Assembly (NCBI GenBank): GCA_918797485.1
Contig: CAKKNE010000004.1
Location: 310,001 to 374,000, forward strand
Origin: Pelagomonas calceolata
Taxonomy: Eukaryota
Direction: 5' to 3'
DNA length: 64,000 nt
Below, piece after piece: positions 1 through 45,398 of this stretch. Position numbers and translations under genes: made by a program. The first letter of the stretch is position 1. Each line of letters begins with the position of its first letter. The notes below the pieces were generated by a model. The model was not told the origin of the DNA. It was given only the letters and a program-made list of their open reading frames with translations, and made no database searches.

Positions 1-3000
1 CCTTTACTGGAGGCCTTCGCGAACGCGACCACGGTACGGAACGGCAACTCCAGTCGTTTTGGGAAGTTCGTGCGAGTCTTCGTCGATCGGCTGTCGGGGA
101 CCGTTGCCAGCGCCACGGTCGACCACTACTTGCTGGAAAAAACGAGGTGCGTTTCACTGAATGAAGGCGAGCGGAACTTTCACGTTTTTTATCAATTAGT
201 AGCGGATTCTCATTTGAGGGCGGACGACCGGCGTTTGTTAAATCTTGGGAATCGCGTTCACCCGCCGCGCGACCAGCCGGACGATTATCAAGAGACCCTG
301 CGGTCGATGCGCGCTCTCTCGGTTCCGGAAGATGTGATCAAGGACATCTCATCGACTTTAAAAGGCATTTTAGCTGTCGGCGAGGCCCACTTCGAGAGCG
401 TAGAAATCCCGGGCCAAGATGCGGGTAGCAGGATGGCCAACGTGACGAGTGACGCGTCGAAGTGTCTGGGCGTGGCGTCCGACGACTTGGCGGAAGCTTT
501 TGTAGCGAGACGCGTCGCTGGTGTGCGCGTACCTAACAGCAGTAAGCAGGCCGAGGACGCCCGTGACGGGTTACTCAAAGCTTTGTATGCTAGGTTGTTC
601 GACAAGATCGTAGCGTTGGTGAACAGCGCTCTGGGTGATGACAGTTCAAAGCCGAACATGGGGAAGGACGAACGGTTGTTCGTGGGGTTACTTGACATCT
701 TTGGCTTTGAATCATTTGTTTCGAATAGTCTGGAGCAACTGTTAATTAACTACGCGAATGAACGGTTGCAAGCCCACTTCAACAACTTCGTCTTCGAGAC
801 GGAGGCGAAGTTGTATACGCAGGAGGACATACCGGTACCCCCGACGGCCTATGTAGATAACGCCGGGGTCGTCGCATCTCTCGAAGATGGCGTGCTGCGG
901 TTGTTGGACGAAGAATGCGCTTTACGGAGAGGTTCGGATCAACAGTTCGTGGCGAAATTGGATCGGGTCTCTGATGGGGATGTGCTAGCACCTTATAGGG
1001 GTACCGCGAGAACTGGAGGGGAACTCGTAGGGAGAGCCTTTATCATCTCTCATTTCGCGGGCAAGGTCACCTATACGACGGATGGCTTCGTGGCCAAGAA
1101 TAGAGATGCTCTCCCCGATGCGGGCGCGTCAACACTCGCCGCGTCCTCGAACCCGCTCGTAGCATCCCTCTTCGCAACATCGGTCGCTGTTGAGCGCAAA
1201 GGTGCTAGAGCGGCTAGACGAGGGAATAGACGAAGGGAGTGCGTCGCCAAGGCCTTCGGGAAATCACTAAAAGAGCTCACGCGGACGGTGGAGAGTACGA
1301 GACCGCAGTTCGTCCGCTGCGTGAAACCGAACGCCGACCAAGCGCCGGCGTCCTGGCGCGGCGCGCTGGTCTTGGAGCAATTAAGATATATGGGCCTCCT
1401 GCAAGTCGTCGAGGCTCGTAGAAGAGGCTACCCGCGACGGTACTCCTATGAAGCCTTTTTGAAAAGGTTCGGGAAACTCTGCGACATGACGCATTCTCCC
1501 AACCGGGAGGGCGCCGTGTGTTTGGTGGATGCTCTAGCGTCATCTTTATCTCTAGAGAGGGATGCCATTGTGGTCGGTCGTACGAAAGTGTTCCTAAGGG
1601 CAAGAGCGGAGGCTCTGATCGAAGGGGCACGGGACAAAGCCTTGCGCAAGTCGGCCCTCAAGGAGTTGGAAACGGCCATCGAGATGGAAAATGTGGATGC
1701 GTTGGAGGCGGCGGTCGCCATCGCTACCGAGTTGCGATTGGACGGGTCCGTGCTAGATAGAGCTAGAAGTAGAGTAGCGGTTCTGAGGTTCCGGAAGCAC
1801 ACCGCAAGCTTCAAGGAGGTCATGAAAGCTATACTGCCGGACATGCACCGCGACGTCTTGAAAGATATTTACAAGAATGCTTCTGTTTGTTTGGACGACG
1901 CCGCGCGTGTTGCGCAAGCGGAGACCACGGCGGCGTGGGCGATGGCCGCAGATATTGATACGTTTAAGCAGATCTTGCGGAGGTTGCGACGTAAATTGCG
2001 GAAGCTGGAAGAAAGGTGCAAGGCTGCTGCTTCTCTCGAGAGAGCGGGCAACGAGGTGATGGAGACGTGTCGCGATTTAGAATTAGTTGGTGAAGATGCG
2101 ATGCGCGTCCTCGAGAACGCGCGAGCGGACCTAGAAACGGCCCACAAAGCAGCCGAAGAGTCAGGTGTACCACCTACCGCGCCAGAAGCGCTGATTGCCC
2201 TGAAGGCGGCGGACGTTCTGGCCGTGGCCTTCGACCGTCATTTACAACAGGCCGAGGAAGAAAAAGCGGAAAGGGTCGCCTTCCTGGACCACATGCGCGA
2301 GGGCCAGGAGGAGGGCAAGGACGCGGACTCGCCGGCGACCATTGCAAGGAGGTCTGCCGTCGAGGTCGACCTCGACGTTCGTTTCCCGCGTCTTGTGTTT
2401 TTCGTTCGCGCGAGATGTACGCCACGCCCCGCGGACCTCCTCGCCGCGCTACGCCGTCGCCGCGTCGACGCTCTCGATGCACGCAGGCGGTGCCGCCGAC
2501 GTCGCCGCCGACGTCGCCGCCGACGTCGCGCGTCCGAGAAATGAAGCCGCCCCCCGTGCCGCCGCCGCCGGAAGTGACCGTGACGCCGCCCGATTCCTTG
2601 CCGGACGACGACGTGCAAGTGATCGTGCCGAAGCCCCCTGCTTATGCCGACGAGGCGCGACCGGCGACGTGGCTGTCGGACGCGGAGCAGCACGCCTGCC
2701 AGGCTTTATCTTCAAAGGTGTCGTCGGCGATTGTGGTCGCGGACGACCCGGAGCGACGGGCTCGCGCGTTAGCATTGGAGCGACCGGCCGTGAAGCTCCA
2801 AAAGAGCGGGTCGGAGTGGAAACGAGTTGTTGTGGAAAAGGATTCACTCGTGTGGCGCAACCAGAAGAAGTCGTCCTTTTCTCCGCGAAGTACGGGTACG
2901 GTGAAGCTCAAGGACGTGGAGCGAGTCTGCTTAGGCCCAGAAGTACCCAGAAGAGACGGCGAGGGCGGTTTGGTGGACGAGTATCATCTCCAAGTGAAAC

Positions 3001-4536
3001 CGTCGCACCGAGCCGCGTCGCGGTGGCACTACGTGACGGTGACGACGGTCCAGAGGGACTATGTGTTTGGTCTTGTCAGAACAGAGGAGGAAGACGACGA
3101 CGCGTGGAGCTTTGCGTTGCACCTCGAACGGCAGTGCGACTTCTTCGCTGGGAGGTCGAGACCCTTCGGCGCTGGTGTTCTCGCTAGAGCGCAGAAGGTG
3201 TGGCAGGAGGATGATGCCTATAGTACACAAAGGTCATTATCGAGGCTGTGTCCTGCTCTACGACCGCTGGCCCCGATCCTCGCTTCGCTGTCGGAGACGT
3301 CCTTCAAATCGTATAAGTTACCTAGAGGCGCGGCCTTCGGCGCGTCGGCGCCGGCGTCGCACGCGCCCTTGGCCTGGCTGCCCTGCGCCGTGCTCGATCA
3401 AGGGTGTCGAAGCGGCCTGGCGTTCGGGACGACGTTTGACCCCTGCGAACCTCGACCTGTTGAGGGGCCCTACCCCGTTCTCGTCTGTGTGGAAATCAAA
3501 TTTCGGACGCCCCACGCCATCGACGCAGCTCCTAGCTCACTGGTTGATTTCCACACAGGCTCTCGTGCAGTGCGAGAAATACGTCAAGGACACTTGTCCA
3601 CAACTAGTATCAACAAATATCACCTCAACGAGGAGACCGGCGCCGCAGTCACCACGAAGCCCGGCCCAGAACGCGGCCCAAGCTCTACGGAAGCGACCGT
3701 CCGCTAAAAGGCAAGTGCCGGACCGGCCGAAGCCGGTCCACTTATTCGCGGCGTGCGCTATGGGCGACCCTGATCTCGTGGAAGCGCTGGTGCTGCGGTG
3801 TCGCGTCAAGGTCGACGCTCGTTATCCGCAGGAAGATCCGCAACAGTGGGCACAGCTCTGTCCCCAGCAGGCCGACGCGGAACCGCACGAGGGGACTACT
3901 GCGTTGTGCTATGTCGTGACGTGGTGCGACGTGCTGGGCGAGGCCAATGTCGAGAAAGTAGCTAGACGGTTGATGCTACTCAGGGCGGACCCGGCTCTCG
4001 ATGACGGCCACCCCGACGTGCGGTTCCCGCCGCTATGCGCCGCGGTGGCCAATGGGTCGACGCAACTCGCCTTGTTACTGTTACACGCGGGCTCCGATCC
4101 CGATGTCCGGACGTCGGACGGTCGCCAGGCGATTCATGTCCTGAACTTGACGCGGAAGGAGGAAGATCGCGCGACTCTCTTAGAAGCTTTGGTCAACGCG
4201 GGCGCGGACGTCGACGCGACGACCAATAGTGGCGACGCTGCTTGTCATGTCGCCGCGCGCGAGGGCTTGCATGACGTGCTCTGCCGGCTTTTGGAATTTG
4301 GGGCGAACATGATGGCCGAAAACGGTCGGCACCAGCGCGGAAATCAACCAGTGAGTTAGGTTCTCGAGCAGACGCAGCTACGGAGAAAATATCGCGCCGA
4401 TGGCGTGGGGCGCCCGAAATTCGAATTCCACACAGGTGATGGATTGACTCCGGCCGAGGTCGCGTATGTCGAGCTGCAGGGCGATTCGTCGAAGGACGCG
4501 GCGGCGCTGGCGCGATGCCACGAGCTGCTTGCCTAA
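1..4536 (+). CDS. Myosin (5'-partial): motor domain, helical/coiled-coil region, Pro-rich linker, PH-like region and C-terminal ankyrin repeats; exons <1-2376, 2487-3476, 3559-4324, 4436-4536
   Basis: Frame 1 from base 1 reads PLLEAFANATTVRNGNSSRFGKF (switch I), then LLDIFGFE (switch II), ERNFHVFYQL and FVRCVKPN. Three GT-AG introns join ORFs 70..2544, 2415..3707 and 3061..4359 in frame. The last splice restores the ankyrin motif ENGDGLTPAEVA, stop TAA at 4534-4536. Confidence 0.85.
2377..2486 (+). other. Spliceosomal intron (110 nt), probably an old introner
   Basis: GTTCGT...ACGCAG, phase 0, joins VDLD to AVPPTS in frame. Confidence 0.7.
3477..3558 (+). mobile_element. Introner element (intron-forming MITE)
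   Basis: Perfect 15-bp TIR CTGTGTGGAAATCAA (3485) / TTGATTTCCACACAG (3558); 8-bp TSD GTTCTCGT / GCTCTCGT; splicing restores the frame (YP|ALVQC). Confidence 0.9.
4325..4435 (+). mobile_element. Introner element, opposite orientation to 3477-3558
   Basis: Internal sequence matches the reverse complement of the 3477 element (GGAAATCAACCAGTGAG...CGATGGCGTGGGGCGCCCGAAATT); GT lies 8 nt before the decayed TIR; ends ACACAG. Confidence 0.85.
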
Positions 4537-4899
4537 TTCAGAGTGCTGTTTATTTTTTCTCCGGAGTCGTAGTGTTGTTACGATTTTCTCTGGACTCGTC
4601 GTAGTTTCGTGCGGCGTTTTGCTTTTCTAGTGTCTTGCAGCTAGCTAATCACCCAGCCAGAGCGAAGCAGAGCAGTCACAGTGCGCAGCGGTCGACCTTT
4701 CCTGGTGCAGAGAGCCGTGACGAGGTCGCGGCGCGCTCACACCCCGCGGGGCAACCTGTAGTTCAGAGAATTGGCGCTTTCCCCTGGCTGGGGCAGCCTC
4801 TGCTTGTCTGTCAAGCAAAGCATCGACGGCGTCGGCGCGAGCGTCAACAGCCTGTTCACTGGGAGAACTAGTCTGAACACGCGCGGCTTGGCATCTGCA

Positions 4900-5313
4900 A
4901 TGCCAGTTGTCCTTGACAAAAAGAATGCGGCCCCCAACCTCACGAGCGACGAGATCGTGAACACGGTCACGCAGATACTCTTGACAGATGACAAATTCGC
5001 GAACGAATTGGAACGCTGGTGCGAGCAGCACTGCGACCGGTTCTTCCTCGACGACGAGAGCGAGCACTTGATGGAGCACTGGAAGCTGCATGAGGATTTC
5101 TGCAACTTGTTCGAGAAGCGCATCGAGGCCTGCCTGACGGAGAACGGCTACTCCGTCGACGAGTTCTGGGACGCGCTCATGAAATTCGTCGACGGCCAGA
5201 AGGGCGCGACGGGCGCGGAGGGCTTCCTGCTCGAGGCCCTGCGGGCCTCGACGGATTACCGACAGTTCGCCGTGACGATGCGCCAGATGCGGCGCGACCG
5301 GTCGGGGAAGTAA
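4900..5313 (+). CDS. BART (ARL2/ARL3-binding) domain protein, CFAP36-like
   Basis: EHLMEHWKLHEDFCNLFEKRIEACL...DYRQFAVTMR resembles the BART domain; ATG at 4900. Confidence 0.7.
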   Translation: MPVVLDKKNAAPNLTSDEIVNTVTQILLTDDKFANELERWCEQHCDRFFLDDESEHLMEHWKLHEDFCNLFEKRIEACLTENGYSVDEFWDALMKFVDGQKGATGAEGFLLEALRASTDYRQFAVTMRQMRRDRSGK

Positions 5314-20023: not shown

Positions 20024-20478
20024 CCTGTACTGGTGTTTGCTTGTGCGTTTACGAGTGCAGCGGTCGGCTGCCGCGGCGCGGTCTCTGGCGTCTCACGGAC
20101 GCGGCGGCGGGCGCGCGCAACCGTGCAGCTCCGTTGGCCGGTGCTGGGGCGCGCGGGGCAGCCTTCACGTCGACCGGCGGGGCAGTTTTTGTCTCACCAA
20201 CTGAATCCCACTAGTTCGGTCGTGGCGCGGCAGACGGGTCGTCCAGGCCCTCCCGCGGGACCTTTCCGCGGACGAATGCTGTAGTTTCAGATCGATTGCT
20301 TGCGTGCGGGTACACACTCAGACAGGCAGAGCATAACTTTGTTGTGTCCGTCAGCATCCACGGGGCATTGCTCGAGGTCAAACGACTGCTGTAGGCCGTC
20401 TACGAACGGTGTAGAAGCGCTTGTCAGAAGACCGCGTTCACGCAGCGCAGCAGCTCGGCCAAAACTGTGCGATCCAGC

Positions 20479-21293
20479 ATGCTCCGCATCAGTCTCTTGC
20501 TCGCCGGCGCGCGCGCGCTCCAGGCGCCGCCGCGCGCGCACCGCGCGACGCACTTGCGCGCTGCCGAGGCCGCTTTAGCCGTCGACGCGGCCGACGCGTT
20601 CGACCAGTTCGGCGTCGCCGCCGTCGCCGCCTCGGCCAAGCTGGCGTCGCAGGACCCGGCCGGCGAGAAACCGAGCGACGCCCAGACGCGCGGTGTTGTT
20701 TTAGCTACGGCCGCGGCGGGCGCCGTCGCCGTGCTCGCGGCCGCGCCGAAGACGGCGCGCGCGTCGATCGCCGAGCCGGTCCAGCCCGCCGTGGCGAGCG
20801 GCATCCCGAACAAGCTCGCGCGGCAGCTGCTGCAGATCGAGCGGCTGAACGTCGACTCCAACGGCTCTGGAGACAGAAGGACGCACAAGCCGCGCCTGGA
20901 CATCTCGGGCAACTCCGCGAAAGTGTGTATTGACGGCTACGAGCCCGAGGGCAGCGATCGGGTCCAGTTCATCTGGCTCAAGAACGAAGAGGCGGACGCG
21001 ATTGTGGCGGCGAAGGTTTGATGCTGTGTGGAAATCAAACCATCGACGCGACGTCGTCCCCCTGACTGTATCTGCTCGATGGCGTGGAGATTCTAAGCCA
21101 TCGACGCGACGTCGTCCCCGTGATGCATCTGCTCGATGGTATAACTCACTGGTCGATTTCCACACAGGAATTCCCCGAGAACTTCAAGGGCACGCCCATG
21201 CTGTCTTGCAGCGTGACTCCCGGTAGAACGTACGCGCCGTGCGCGTACTTCACGACGCACGGGCTGTGGCTCGGTAGGTCGGAGACGGCGTAG
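20479..21293 (+). CDS. Plastid (possibly lumen) protein with a desulfoferrodoxin/superoxide-reductase-like C-terminal domain; exons 20479-21015, 21168-21293
   Basis: Signal peptide ending ARA-L, second hydrophobic segment ending TARA; THKP, VQFIWLK and HGLW resemble the SOR fold. Confidence 0.6.
21016..21167 (+). mobile_element. Introner element with an internal tandem duplication
   Basis: GT 8 nt before TIR CTGTGTGGAAATC; ends GATTTCCACACAG; CCATCGACGCGACGTCGTCCCC...TCTGCTCGATGG occurs twice. Confidence 0.9.
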
Positions 21294-21370
21294 TGGAGTG
21301 CTCTCGGGAGTAACTCAACATTACGTTAGTTCTGGACACATTTGGGGGGGACTAGACTTGGAGGGGTGGG

Positions 21371-21424
21371 CCCGCCGGTCGGGTCCGCGGCGAAAGGGCG
21401 CCGCGGGCCGTCACAGAGGCAGGG
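21371..21424 (-). promoter_or_regulatory. Putative SECIS element (GUGA_CC_GA type)
   Basis: Minus strand CCTGCC-TCT-GTGAC-GGCCCGCGGCG-CCCTTT-CGCCGCGGACC-CGAC-C-GGCGGG: helix I, UGAC/CGAC quartet, 11-bp helix II with one mismatch. Confidence 0.5.
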
Positions 21425-21443
21425 CTGAGGGAAAGCGAGGGCT

Positions 21444-22189
21444 CTAGCACGGTCAGCCGCCCTTGTCCTCGCCGTACTTGCCGCGGAACGTGTTGATGTC
21501 CTTGCCGCCCTTCTGGACGCCCTCCGTCGTCGTCCAGTTCTCGTCGTGCTTGCGCGCCTGTGTGTAAATCAAATTTCAGGCGCCCCACATTTTATAGCTT
21601 CATCTGCTCCATGGCAAAACACAACTCACTGGTTGATTTCCACACAGGCCCACACGTGGTTGTCCTTCTTGATCTTCTCGAGCGTCTCGAGCCGCTGCCT
21701 TTTCGACTCCTCCTTCTCGCGCGCGGCCTTCTGCTCGGCGTCGCGGCGCGCCTGCTGCTTGAGCGTGAGGGGACCGTCGTTCGACTCCTTGACCACGACC
21801 TTGGGCGTGCCGTCGGCGTTGAGCTGCGGCGACGAGCGGAGAGGCGGGGGCGCAAGCGCCCGCGCGACGGCCGCGGCCGCGCCGGCGGGCGGCGCGCCGC
21901 TAGCGACGAGGCGGCTGCCCTGCGTCTCGAAGCCGACGGTCGCTAGCAAAGTCATGGCCGCCGGCTCGGAGACCAGCTTCGCGCCGGCCTTGCCCTCTAA
22001 GTTAATCGAGCGGAACTTTTCGTTCGTCGGGTCGCGCTCGAGATTTTGCACGATCTTGACCAACAGAGGCGCGGCGGCGGACGTCTTCGGGACCTGAGCC
22101 GCCACGGAGGCGACGACGGAGGAGTTGACGGTGCTGGCGGCGTCCATAGAGGCCGGGGCGCCGTTGCCGCCCAATATTAACACACTCAT
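21444..22189 (-). CDS. PUB-domain (p97/Cdc48-interacting) protein, candidate selenoprotein ending KGG-U-P-C; exons 22189-21656, 21557-21444 (ends at 21453 if the UGA is a stop)
   Basis: PUB motif LLVKIVQNLERDPTNEKFRSINL...LLATVGF; the spliced last exon reads ARKHDENW...INTFRGKYGEDKGG TGA CCG TGC TAG. Confidence 0.8.
21558..21655 (-). mobile_element. Introner element
   Basis: TIRs CTGTGTGGAAATCAA / TTGATTTACACACAG; GT 8 nt before the TIR; phase 0 splice DNH|ARK. Confidence 0.9.
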
Positions 22190-22574
22190 TTTTGCCGACG
22201 AGCTAAAAAAGTGCTGTGCTGTGACTTGAGCCTATGAGCCCCAAAAGATGCCGCGGCGGCGCGTGGACGGTAGAACAAGTACTACTGAACGATTTCCCCA
22301 GCGCGCTGCGTCCCTGACGTGCAGGCGGCCTCGCTTGCGGCGCGTCAAGACACGTTCGTCCGAGTCGAGGTCGTTGCCTTGGGGCTAGTATGTCGACGAC
22401 GCTAGCCTGGAAGGTTCGTTCTCATGGCTCCACCCGCTCATGCCCGCGCAAGAACTCGTCGCCGACCACCACTCTAGCAACAAACCCCCTAAAAAGCTTT
22501 AAATCAGGTGGGAGTTCGCAGCCATCTCAAAAAAGGGCAGCATCGATCGACGCCGGGGCAGCCACTGCACAAAA

Positions 22575-24242
22575 ATGTCCCTCTTCGAGACGACGCAACG
22601 CTTAGAACAGCTGCCCGTGCCTAGGGATGACGCCCACCAGCAGGTGGTCCCTGGGCGGTCCAACCCTTACAGCAGACCGGAGTTCTCCAGAGGTTTTGAT
22701 TATTCGAAGTGGGACAACATCGACACGGACGATGATGAAGAAGAAAAGCCGCTCTCACCAGCGAAGCGCGAGGCGCCGGTGCCGACGCGCGCCGCGCCGC
22801 CCGCGCAGCGCTTCGAGACCCTCGAGGACGCCATCGTGAGGGCGCGCGCGGCCGACGGCTGGGGCCGCGACGGCGTCAAGGAGGTGGCCGACGCCCTGAA
22901 CTTGCCGGCGGATGACCCGGCCCGTTCTTCTGTCGAGGCGCTGCAGACGTCGCTAGCCCAGGCCGGTGCGCTCGAGCAGGCGGCGGCTCTGCCGTTTGTG
23001 GTCGGCTGCGAGCCGGATCCGAGGTCCGTGGAGAAGGTCAAGGAAGCTTATCAGAGAAGGAAGGCCACGCCGATGGCCGGAGAAGTCGGGGCGAGGTCCG
23101 CCGCGGAGACGGTCGCGCGCTCCGAAGCCCGCAAGATCGCGAAGATCGCCCGATGTCTCCTAAGGGAGCCCGACGGCGCATCACGGCTCCTCGCGACGGG
23201 CGCCGTGCCTTCCGGCGTGCGCGGTCTCGGGAAGCTGCGCAACGCGCCCGAGCTCCAATTAGCGACGGCCGCCGTGAACGCCATGGAGAAGAAGGCCGCC
23301 GAGCGGTTGGTGCGGGCGGCCGTCGACGGTCCCACTTCTCATAGGGAGGAGTTCCTGCGGCACACGCCGTTCCAGACGGAACTGTCGCGAACCGCGTTCA
23401 AGGCGAGCAAGGGGAAAACTGCATTAAATGAACTCCGGTCCAAGGGCTACTGCGTGTTGAATGATGCGGTCTCCCACGAGGACTGCTACGCCATCCATAA
23501 TTTTTACACGAGGCCGAAGCCCGCAACTGACTTGCCGATCGAGCTCGGCCTGCAGTCCGTGCGGGCCCTGTCTCCGTCATTGTTCAGAAACTATAAGGAG
23601 CTGCAGCCCGACCCCGAGACGCAGATGGCGTTGCGGGCCGCGATCCAAGCTTTGGTGGGATGTGCTCATGAATTGGAACAGCGAGCACCCGAATTAAGGG
23701 ACGGCCTCGCATTACCTGCTTATTGTAACATACGAAGCCAGCGCCCGGAACAGATCATGGCGAGGGAACCGCTGTGGCGCGACGACGACCCCGCGGACGA
23801 CGCGGAGTTGGTGGCGTTTGTCTTCGCGAATGCTCGGGACTGGGATGATGACCTTGACGGGGGTACACTTATTGTAAGGGACGACCACGACGTGGCCCAC
23901 TACCTGCCGGCGACGGGCGGGTCGGTGGTCCTGGTGCTGGCGCGGTGCCGCGACGTCGAGTTCAAAGCTCCCAAGAAGCGGCACAGCGTGGTCCTGCGAT
24001 GCCGCTACGACCGACGACGGGCCGACGTCGACGTCGAGGACGAAGATTCGGAGTCGGACGAGGAGGCGGGGTCCGCCGAGTCGCGCGCGGCGTCCTTGGC
24101 CGCGAAGCTCCGGGCCCGCGCGACGGCGGGCGGGGAAAGCGGAGGCACGTGGGGCCCTAATGGCTTCGAGCCCGACGGCCGGGCCGTGGATCCCTCGAGC
24201 GTGGGGTTCACCGGCGACGAGCGCGAGGTGGACCTCGTGTAA
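22575..24242 (+). CDS. Protein with a Cdc37-N-like DYSKWD motif and a degenerate 2OG-Fe(II) oxygenase-like domain
   Basis: FDYSKWDNIDTDDD; LRSKGYCVLND and DWDDDLDGGTLIV resemble the EGLN/P4H fold, but no HxD motif. Confidence 0.6.
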   Translation: MSLFETTQRLEQLPVPRDDAHQQVVPGRSNPYSRPEFSRGFDYSKWDNIDTDDDEEEKPLSPAKREAPVPTRAAPPAQRFETLEDAIVRARAADGWGRDGVKEVADALNLPADDPARSSVEALQTSLAQAGALEQAAALPFVVGCEPDPRSVEKVKEAYQRRKATPMAGEVGARSAAETVARSEARKIAKIARCLLREPDGASRLLATGAVPSGVRGLGKLRNAPELQLATAAVNAMEKKAAERLVRAAVDGPTSHREEFLRHTPFQTELSRTAFKASKGKTALNELRSKGYCVLNDAVSHEDCYAIHNFYTRPKPATDLPIELGLQSVRALSPSLFRNYKELQPDPETQMALRAAIQALVGCAHELEQRAPELRDGLALPAYCNIRSQRPEQIMAREPLWRDDDPADDAELVAFVFANARDWDDDLDGGTLIVRDDHDVAHYLPATGGSVVLVLARCRDVEFKAPKKRHSVVLRCRYDRRRADVDVEDEDSESDEEAGSAESRAASLAAKLRARATAGGESGGTWGPNGFEPDGRAVDPSSVGFTGDEREVDLV

Positions 24243-44157: not shown

Positions 44158-45398
44158 ATGAAGGCCGCCGTTCTCCTCGCCACCGCCGCTCATGCCGCCA
44201 AGCAGGCCGTAGAGGAGCCTGCCGAGTCGCCGGTCGCGTGCGTGCCCGCGTCCAAAATTAACATTCGGCTGCCGGCGCGCCTCGGCGGTCGCGCGCGCCG
44301 CGCGCTGGGGGGGCAGCCGCGGAGCGCTTCCATCAAGCCCCCGCGGCCGCCCGGGCCCCGCCGCGTCGATCGGCGGCGCGGCGCCCGCCCTTGGTTGCGC
44401 CGCGCGCGTGTGGCGCCGCAACCGCGACCGCCGCGCGCCGCGACCGCGCCCGCCGCCCGCCCCGGCCACGCCCCGGCGCGCCCGCCGCGACCGCAACCCC
44501 AAACACGCAGGTTCCTCATCGACCCCGTCAAGGAGATGGTGAACAAGGGCATCGAGACCGCCACCACGGGCGCGGGCTGGCTCAAGGGCGGCCCGCAGAT
44601 GGTCTCCGACGTCGTCTGCGGCATCATCGACACCTGGGTCTCGGTCATCGACCCGAACGAGGGCACGATCCGCAAGGCGATGTCGGGCGACGCCGCGACG
44701 CTCGACGAGCTCGCCTCGCTCGCCTCCACCATCGGCTCCATCGTCTTCGTCGTCTACGTCTGCATGACGGCCGTCAACCTCTTCCTGGCCACGGCCGAGT
44801 CCGTGCCTGCGTGGGAATCAATTGTCGCGGCGCGTCTCCACGCCATCGACGCGTCGCCACGCCATCGAGATGTGGTCTCTCATTGGTTGATTTGCGCACA
44901 GGTCGGTTCGCGACTACTTCAAGAACTACCTCACGATTCCCAAGCTCTCGAAAGCCGTTCCGATCGTCGGCCAGTACCTCGCGCCGGCGGACGGTCCGTG
45001 GGCCACCGCCACGGGCCCGATCCAGAAGTACGTCTTGGACCCCGTCAAGAACTGGAAACACCGCACGATCCTGCCCTTCGAGGGCTCGCACGGCTCCACG
45101 CTCTCGGGCACGATTGCGACCATCACGGCCGCGACGTCAGTCCTGTGTGGAAATCAAATTTCGCGGCGCTTCTGAGGTGTGGATCGTAACCCCCTCGATT
45201 CAGTCATCACAACCGCCTTGTCGCCGAGAAACGACACTCACTGGTTGATTTCCACTCAGGTCCGCCTGCTTGCTCCTCTCGACGACGCCCGACGTCCTTG
45301 CTTTGGCTCGCGGTGGTGCCGACAAGGCCGCCGCCGAGGCGCTCGCCTGGACGGTCGGCACGGCCCTGGGCCTCAAGTACGTCGCCGCGCGCGCGTAG
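44158..45398 (+). CDS. Hypothetical membrane protein; exons 44158-44237, 44511-44798, 44902-45135, 45260-45398
   Basis: Signal peptide MKAAVLLATAAHA; three GT-AG introns give one open frame to TAG 45396-45398; strongly GC3-biased exons. Confidence 0.7.
44238..44510 (+). other. Intron (273 nt, GC-rich)
   Basis: GTGCGT...ACGCAG; would otherwise encode low-complexity Arg/Pro sequence. Confidence 0.65.
44799..44901 (+). mobile_element. Introner element
   Basis: TIRs CTGCGTGGGAATCAA / TTGATTTGCGCACAG; TSD GTCCGTGC / GTCGGTTC. Confidence 0.85.
45136..45259 (+). mobile_element. Introner element
   Basis: TIRs CTGTGTGGAAATCAA / TTGATTTCCACTCAG; subterminal ACTCACTGG. Confidence 0.88.

What the first reader, a model, noticed from the sequence alone, without database searches (positions are those of the whole stretch)
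21371..22189. Candidate new selenoprotein: PUB-domain protein ending GG-U-P-C with a SECIS-like hairpin
Seen: once the introner at 21558-21655 is removed, the last exon (not in the ORF track) reads ...INTFRGKYGEDKGG-TGA-CCG-TGC-TAG. About 40 nt after the TGA is a hairpin with a GUGAC/CGAC non-Watson-Crick quartet, an 11-bp helix II, a helix I and a C-rich apical loop. Established: SELENOS and SELENOK end in GG-U near the C-terminus and work with p97 in ERAD; PUB domains bind p97; CC-loop SECIS variants exist (mammalian SelM, SelO); pelagophytes have very large selenoproteomes. Inference: a soluble p97 cofactor with a C-terminal UxC redox motif, likely mis-annotated as stopping at UGA. Caveats: the UGA-SECIS spacing is short and there is no AA loop.
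Basis: partly seen in the sequence, partly recalled or inferred. Interest (0 to 1): 0.82.

Follow-up and report, generated by a model that had tools for sequence, protein, structure and literature searches.

The report
Algal PUB selenoprotein with close-set SECIS
A gene of the ocean alga Pelagomonas calceolata is annotated as stopping at a UGA codon that very likely encodes selenocysteine instead, giving a likely redox tail (Sec-Pro-Cys) on a PUB-domain protein; a family of that description is already listed for algae, but the recoding hairpin here sits unusually close to the codon.

Summary
RNA reads confirm the 98-nt intron, and the transcript ends at about 21329-21333, so the hairpin (21425-21370) is in the 3'UTR. 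All 14 related loci have TGA after the terminal GG, then Cys (U-P-C in 7, U-C in 7) and TAA/TAG; all 12 loci long enough carry a RUGAC..YGAY SECIS-type hairpin. Relatives ending in CC exist (Triparma). Sec is very likely (0.9) but not shown biochemically; Rfam finds no SECIS. The gene is P. calceolata CAH0373033.1, annotated as 212 aa ending at GG. 'New selenoprotein' is overstated: Jiang 2020 (PMC7539508) already lists a 'PUB domain-containing' algal selenoprotein family, whose sequences I could not see. The p97-cofactor reading is weaker than proposed: three of five p97-contacting PUB residues are replaced. It is not SELENOS/K (no membrane helix). Worth attention: the UGA-to-SECIS-core gap is 38-45 nt in pelagophyte-type loci, below the 51-111 nt mammalian minimum; the apical dinucleotide varies (CC, UU, AA) between orthologues; some relatives are fused to a thioredoxin-like domain.

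The parts
22190..22358 (-). 5'UTR (approximate 5' end 22354-22358)
   Evidence: many molecules end at 22353-22358, depth drops to ~0 beyond 22363
21656..22189 (-). Exon 1, residues 1-178: PUB-fold domain (~37-95), Pro/Ala linker, start of long helix (143-182)
   Evidence: Pfam PF09409 E 2.8e-08, 34.0 bits vs cut-off 34.3; AlphaFold model; PUB structures top the fold search
21558..21655 (-). 98-nt GT..AG intron made largely of an introner-like element with terminal inverted repeats (21648-21557)
   Evidence: RNA joint skips 98; TIR copies elsewhere in window; absent from 8 of 9 pelagophyte-type loci
21456..21557 (-). Exon 2 coding part, residues 179-212: conserved W..KGG..I.TFR.KYGE motif and GG linker
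21453..21455 (-). In-frame TGA, likely Sec213
   Evidence: TGA in 14 of 14 related loci
21444..21452 (-). CCG TGC TAG: Pro214, Cys215, true stop
   Evidence: Cys then TAA/TAG in 14 of 14 loci; no variant rows at 21444-21455 in 8 runs laid
21370..21425 (-). SECIS-type element, type I: helix I, GUGAC/CGAC core, helix II, CCCUUU loop
21329..21443 (-). 3'UTR, ~115 nt, abutting the 3' end of a convergent plus-strand transcript
   Evidence: strand-resolved depth and read starts

Best explanation
The gene is spliced and transcribed, and it likely encodes a 215-residue soluble selenoprotein in which UGA 213 is likely read as selenocysteine under control of the 3'UTR hairpin, giving a tail ending GG-Sec-Pro-Cys that would act as a thiol/disulfide redox arm. 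Shown: gene structure, 3'UTR position of the hairpin, conservation of UGA, Cys, second stop and SECIS core. Inferred from established Sec biology: SBP2 binds the kink-turn core and eEFSec delivers Sec-tRNA. Inferred: Sec213 and Cys215 cycle between selenenylsulfide and selenol/thiol, re-reduced by a thioredoxin/nucleoredoxin-type partner (such a domain is fused to the N-terminus in some relatives); the predicted PUB fold plus 40-residue helix hold this arm on a protein-quality-control complex. p97/Cdc48 is the likeliest partner for the family (about 0.5) but only about 0.35 for this protein's PUB pocket. It is probably the family named 'PUB' in algal selenoproteome surveys (about 0.75-0.8).
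For: 14 of 14 loci TGA then (P)C then TAA/TAG, in three lineages at 84-96%, 78% and 56% identity; a fourth divergent contig type continues TGC TAA after the TGA in two runs (loose ends at 21453). Chance: 5 of 1269 TGA triplets in the window have this context, and TGA ends 21 of 60 long ORFs. SECIS core and helix II in 12 of 12 loci long enough; pattern hit in 9 of 10 UTRs tested, shuffles 0-9 per 1000; distant orthologues L010-L014 carry AA 12 nt after the quartet, the window copy CC at 12, both matching SECISearch motifs quoted in PMC2375036. SECIS more conserved (0.64-0.78) than spacer or downstream (0.54-0.57) in 3 of 3 pairs. Natural variants in four metatranscriptome runs fall in loops, none in core or helix II. 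Cys forms: Triparma columacea ends GEDCC; P0290 ends GGCC where near-identical P0204 ends GG. Thioredoxin_8-PUB-tail fusions P0339, P0233, P0202. The 212-aa product has no Cys at all.
Against: No direct evidence of Sec incorporation; Sec machinery of this species not checked (no genome held). No Rfam SECIS match in window or 8 loci; RNAalifold on a MAFFT alignment did not recover the structure; helix II changes seen in the anchored register may be indel shifts rather than compensatory pairs. L011 missed my strict pattern; L006 has neither AA nor CC; the AA-to-GA distance in L010-L014 (44-45) exceeds the quoted 39 limit. Gap of 38 nt is below the 51-111 nt minimum reported for Dio1 (PMC3753652, PMC3316567). 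The 14 loci are redundant (L011-L014 alike, L006=L007 at the site). DNA of the 53-row clade holding the diatom members was not obtained. One X16 loose end after the TGA was an unreadable mix (agreement 0.65).
Confidence: 0.88

Rival explanations
1. UGA is a true stop, the protein ends in GG (as annotated), and the downstream Cys codon, second stop and hairpin are conserved for another reason such as mRNA stability.
For: Database proteins end there (84 of 106 first-search hits end DKGG); no Rfam hit; short spacing.
Against: Those ends are what gene callers produce at any UGA. Does not explain Cys plus a second stop (TAA in L010, TAG in L011) in 14 of 14 loci, the invariant quartet, or CC-ending relatives.
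Confidence: 0.06
2. SECIS-independent programmed read-through inserts Cys/Trp/Arg at UGA, aided by a downstream stem-loop, giving a minor X-P-C isoform.
For: UGA followed by C is a leaky context (recalled); a close 3' hairpin is typical of read-through signals (recalled).
Against: The +4 base is T in 7 of 14 loci; the hairpin lies 121-138 nt away in L010-L014; what is conserved is the unpaired UGA/GA quartet, not just pairing.
Confidence: 0.04
3. Sec is right but the function is not p97-linked: the pelagophyte-type PUB pocket has been re-purposed and binds another partner, or the GG-ending truncated form acts as a selenium-sensing degradation signal. Compatible with the best explanation on Sec; rival only on function.
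For: Y38, R55, N58 equivalents are I46, N63, G66; PMC6995525 calls YxxN(x)9Y essential and PMC4017264 calls the N58-equivalent the cornerstone. G replaces N in 28 of 92 representatives. C-terminal GG degrons on truncated SELENOK/S are recalled, not tested.
Against: N41 equivalent kept in 78 of 92, Y/F51 in 86, K/R55 in 69, N58 in 59, so most of the family keeps much of the pocket; most of the diatom-containing clade lacks terminal GG.
Confidence: 0.45

Closest known systems
'PUB domain-containing protein' algal selenoprotein family (Jiang et al. 2020, PMC7539508)
   Same: PUB domain plus Sec, in algae; the survey includes the pelagophyte Aureococcus (82 selenoprotein genes, 33 families).
   Different: The main text names the family only twice, with no sequence, motif, species or function; its supplement could not be read, so identity is likely but untested. 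'Pelagomonas' does not occur in its main text. It is called narrowly distributed, whereas homologues here span pelagophytes, dictyochophytes, Parmales and diatoms.
SELENOS / SELENOK
   Same: GG before a near-terminal Sec on a flexible tail; proposed link to p97 (recalled).
   Different: No membrane helix (max KD19 1.21) and no strict RxxxxxAAxxR VIM (motif recalled); no Pfam match to them; p97 link, if any, through PUB.
PUB-domain p97 cofactors (PNGase, UBXD1/UBXN6, HOIP)
   Same: Profile match to PNGase PUB E 1.4e-09 and UBXD1 2.2e-05; same fold.
   Different: No PNGase, UBX or RBR domain; three of five pocket residues replaced; Sec tail.
CC-type SECIS of mammalian SelM/SelO; GUGA-core SECIS of Ostreococcus
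   Same: CC at the apical position (PMC3316567); G before the core (PMC2375036).
   Different: 6-nt loop, type I; orthologues switch among CC, UU and AA; 38 nt from UGA versus 207-5207 nt in mammals.

Membership tests
Eukaryotic selenoprotein (UGA/SECIS) | In-frame UGA conserved across orthologues with coding-like conservation beyond it | tested here: met
   14 of 14 loci
Eukaryotic selenoprotein (UGA/SECIS) | SECIS core RUGAN/NGAN with helices I and II | tested here: met
   12 of 12 loci long enough; strict pattern 9 of 10; no Rfam match
Eukaryotic selenoprotein (UGA/SECIS) | SECIS inside the 3'UTR of the mRNA | tested here: met
Eukaryotic selenoprotein (UGA/SECIS) | Unpaired AA or CC 10-13 nt after the quartet | tested here: met
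   CC at 12 in the window; 12 of 13 rows AA or CC, L006 neither
Eukaryotic selenoprotein (UGA/SECIS) | Cys-containing homologues at the Sec position | tested here: met
   P0236/P0340 GEDCC, P0290 GGCC, P0315 GGGGCC; their DNA not seen, so a UGA after the CC is not excluded
Eukaryotic selenoprotein (UGA/SECIS) | UGA-SECIS spacing above the 51-111 nt minimum (empirical, mammalian Dio1) | tested here: not met
   38 nt to core, 27 nt to helix I; 38-45 nt in 8 pelagophyte-type rows, 121-138 in L010-L014. A measured limit from one host, not a definition
Eukaryotic selenoprotein (UGA/SECIS) | Sec machinery in the genome | not tested
   no genome held; no tRNA gene in the window
Eukaryotic selenoprotein (UGA/SECIS) | Selenium in the protein | not testable with these tools
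   needs 75Se or MS
PUB domain (PF09409) | Profile score and fold | tested here: met
   33.6-34.0 bits, just under the 34.3 cut-off, E 3e-08; relatives up to 64 bits; PUB structures fill ranks 1-11 of the fold search, none at E<=0.001
p97-binding PUB cofactors | YxxN(x)9Y core, Arg55/Lys, cornerstone Asn58 | tested here: not met
   I46, N49, F59, N63, G66 (against 68, 71)
p97-binding PUB cofactors | Binding to the p97 C-terminus | not tested
SELENOS/SELENOK | Single membrane helix near the N-terminus | tested here: not met
Algal 'PUB' selenoprotein family (Jiang 2020) | Sequence homology to the listed members | not testable with these tools
   supplement unreadable; Gobler 2011 and 2013 not held

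The most novel reading that the evidence does not exclude
An ochrophyte-wide selenoprotein family, undescribed beyond at most a name, whose pelagophyte members recode UGA with a SECIS only 27 nt (helix I) to 38 nt (core) away and with no fixed apical dinucleotide, breaking both the 51-nt spacing floor and the AA/CC rule; it is a soluble redox arm for the Cdc48/proteasome system, and such minimal SECIS elements mean pelagophyte selenoproteomes are under-counted.
Probability: 0.35. Interest if true: 0.72.

Novelty: new member of a known kind. Interest (0 to 1): 0.5.

Why it matters
It corrects an annotation in an abundant open-ocean alga and supplies motif, Cys homologues, range and fusion partners for a selenoprotein family that has only a name in the papers I could read. 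The natural SECIS series (CC, UU, AA loops; 38 to 138 nt spacing) on one orthologous gene makes two old questions directly testable: the minimum UGA-SECIS distance and what the apical AA does. If the PUB domain still binds Cdc48, it would be a soluble counterpart of SELENOS/K.

Tried and rejected
Rfam: no SECIS in window 21000-22400 or in 8 of the 14 loci given. RNAalifold on MAFFT alignment of 9 elements: misaligned, 5 pairs, uninformative. Sequence-only RNA model R1 built but not used. No relatives in viral contigs or prokaryotic genomes, so no diatom-clade DNA. Alternative donors 21643 and 21649 not among the listed joints (3 weaker joints were not shown). ESM Atlas: only PUB/hypothetical clusters, nothing further. 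Earlier scan findings: none. Paper searches: selenoprotein+PUB domain+algae, selenocysteine+PUB domain, selenoprotein+PUB+UGSC gave only PMC7539508 as relevant; Pelagomonas calceolata+selenoprotein gave 0; 'selen' occurs 0 times in the main text of the genome paper PMC9481584; two spacing searches showed no eukaryotic case under 51 nt, which is a weak negative. No complex prediction was run. The tree is the quick version, 92 rows, 5 broken representatives dropped and 5 rows added. P0093 and P0098 run past the GG position and may be assembly frameshifts; unresolved.

Full report
Gene model. On the minus strand the ORF starts at ATG 22189. Three in-frame introns were possible on paper; RNA supports one, 21655-21558, GT..AG, 98 nt: 191+13, 135+5 and 51+2 reads in runs X21, X22, X24 (one sample) and an 886-nt contig of X9 (another study) that matches 22315-21655 and 21556-21332 with no other letters. 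Exon 2 translates ARKHD...KYGEDKGG-U-P-C-stop when TGA is read as U (an open frame under that code is not itself evidence). First mates lie on +, so the RNA is the minus strand; molecules begin at 21329 and 21333 and depth drops to near zero beyond, where a convergent transcript takes over. The 3'UTR is about 115 nt and contains the hairpin. The spliced 212-aa product is P0002, named Pelagomonas calceolata CAH0373033.1 / 'PUB domain-containing protein', ending at DKGG.

The UGA. A scan of metagenome contigs matched 42 stretches, 14 confirmed. All 14 have TGA directly after the terminal glycines: TGA CCG TGC TAG in 7, TGA TGC TAG in L006-L007 (78% identity), TGA TGC TAA/TAG in L010-L014 (56%, an intron-containing gene of an unidentified eukaryote). 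These amount to three lineages, not 14. A fourth divergent contig type in X15 and X19 (15 and 19 other letters over about 100) aligns through the TGA and continues TGC TAA; a two-contig loose end in X16 was unreadable. In the window 5 of 1269 TGA triplets, this one included, are followed by (x)Cys and TAA/TAG, and TGA ends 21 of 60 ORFs of 250 codons or more. The 212-aa protein contains no Cys.

The hairpin. Core GUGAC 21414-21410 and CGAC 21381-21378; helix II has 10 pairs and a C.A mismatch that is C-G in 7 of the other 9 rows; loop CCCUUU; helix I 21425-21418/21376-21370. Alone it is unremarkable: z -1.37, 19 of 200 shuffles as stable, no Rfam SECIS, and a loose pattern gives 34 hits on both strands of the window. 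In relatives it is constant: 12 of 12 loci with enough 3' sequence have RUGAC-GGC..GCY-YGAY (L007 and L008 are cut off). The strict pattern hit 9 of 10 UTRs given (L011 missed; L012-L014 left out as alike), against 0-9 of 1000 shuffles each (pattern written post hoc). In a register anchored on the core, position 4 is C-G or U-A and position 5 C-G, G-C, U-A or U-G, though indels could produce some of this, and automatic RNAalifold failed. SECIS identity exceeded spacer and downstream identity in 3 of 3 pairs. Variants in four metatranscriptome runs touch 21395, 21397, 21416 and 21377 (loops), none the core or helix II (some are low-depth contigs). The window copy fits the NTGA..CC..GA motif quoted in PMC2375036 (passages); L010-L014 have AA at 12 nt with a long apical stem (AA-to-GA 44-45 nt, over the quoted 39); L006 has UU. 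GUGA cores are the rule in Ostreococcus (same paper). The gap from UGA to core is 38-45 nt in the 8 pelagophyte-type rows and 121-138 in L010-L014; the published minimum is 51-111 nt for Dio1 and the mammalian range 207-5207 (PMC3753652, PMC3316567, passages).

The protein family. Three homology searches and one profile search gave 340 proteins including my one translation; 274 carry the C-terminal signature and 262 of these end within six residues of it, as expected for calls truncated at UGA but also for a true end. Named members are pelagophytes (Pelagomonas, CCMP2097, Chrysophaeum, Chrysoreinhardia), dictyochophytes (Octactis, Rhizochromulina), Triparma and diatoms (Thalassiosira profunda, Helicotheca); the quick tree puts the pelagophytes in one clade (SH-aLRT 99) and the diatom-named rows in a 53-row clade. 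None was found in viral or prokaryotic collections. Cys-ended forms: Triparma columacea GEDCC, P0290 GGCC (its N-terminus is a transketolase chimera) versus near-identical P0204 GG, P0315 GGGGCC; P0114, P0124, P0125 end NC, NCGS, GC, which would be CU or CxxU if a UGA follows. Three proteins of two clusters join a Thioredoxin_8 domain (WCPPC in the two complete ones) to PUB and the same tail.

Structure and p97. The model (mean pLDDT 81.5, pTM 0.51) has a PUB fold, a linker, a helix at 143-182 and a low-confidence tail; PUB structures head the fold search without reaching E 0.001; the family profile matches PNGase PUB at E 1.4e-09. Pfam gives 33.6-34.0 bits against a cut-off of 34.3. PMC6995525 and PMC4017264 (passages) define the p97 pocket as YxxN(x)9Y plus R55 and N58. 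Here these are I46, N49, F59, N63, G66. Across 92 representatives Tyr38 is never present, N41 is in 78, Y/F51 in 86, K/R55 in 69, N58 in 59 and G in 28. So p97 binding is plausible for much of the family and doubtful for this member. There is no membrane helix, so it is not SELENOS or SELENOK.

Mechanism. Shown: splicing, transcript ends, conservation. Following from established Sec biology: SBP2/eEFSec-dependent insertion at UGA. Inferred: a flexible GG-U-P-C arm forming a selenenylsulfide, recycled by a thioredoxin-type partner, carried by a PUB-helix scaffold on a quality-control complex; when Se is short the product would end in GG (a degron in mammals, recalled). Confidence 0.88 for Sec, about 0.7 for a redox role given Sec, about 0.35 for p97 binding by this PUB.

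Novelty. PMC7539508 (section 5 whole, passages elsewhere) lists 'PUB: PUB domain-containing protein' among 42 algal selenoprotein families, as one of the least widespread and not among its three novel ones. Its supplement and the Aureococcus papers of Gobler 2011 and 2013 (nothing seen) could not be read and bear directly on whether this is the same family; I put that at 0.75-0.8. Searches found no paper on Pelagomonas calceolata selenoproteins and no other relevant paper on PUB selenoproteins. Other papers seen in passages only: PMC6627142, PMC4989117, PMC7435645, PMC9481584. Verdict: a real, mis-annotated selenoprotein gene, most likely a new member of a named but uncharacterised family; the short spacing and variable loop are the parts a specialist would notice. 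Interest 0.5.

Noticed in passing
window 21557-21648; also 3484-3559, 21023-21168, 44806-44902, 45142-45260: Introner-like elements with terminal inverted repeats. The one in this gene is present in L008 but absent from 8 of 9 pelagophyte-type loci, a presence/absence polymorphism indicating recent intron gain; its 5' splice site is a GT seven bases outside the repeat. Introner-like introns are noted in the genome paper PMC9481584.
   Followed up: partly
proteins P0339, P0233, P0202: Nucleoredoxin-like Thioredoxin_8 domain fused to PUB and the same conserved tail ending GGG.
   Followed up: partly
L010 1-264 (minus): A thioredoxin-like ORF (GCGPC) lies upstream and divergently oriented to the distant orthologue.
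   Followed up: no
proteins P0316, P0318, P0319, P0303, P0311: More distant PUB proteins with a related helix-and-W motif; three end in GG and may be a sister selenoprotein family.
   Followed up: no
diatom-containing clade, 53 representatives: Most end abruptly at GE, GEN or GES and many carry a Cys in an upstream SAACxK motif, suggesting a shifted Sec with a distant Cys partner; DNA not obtained.
   Followed up: partly
window 20395-21320 (plus): A convergent, spliced gene with an introner at 21023-21168 whose transcript ends at about 21320, abutting this gene's 3' end; no clear Pfam family.
   Followed up: no
window 22503-24242 (plus): A 579-codon ORF divergent from this gene with no Pfam match at E<=1.
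   Followed up: no
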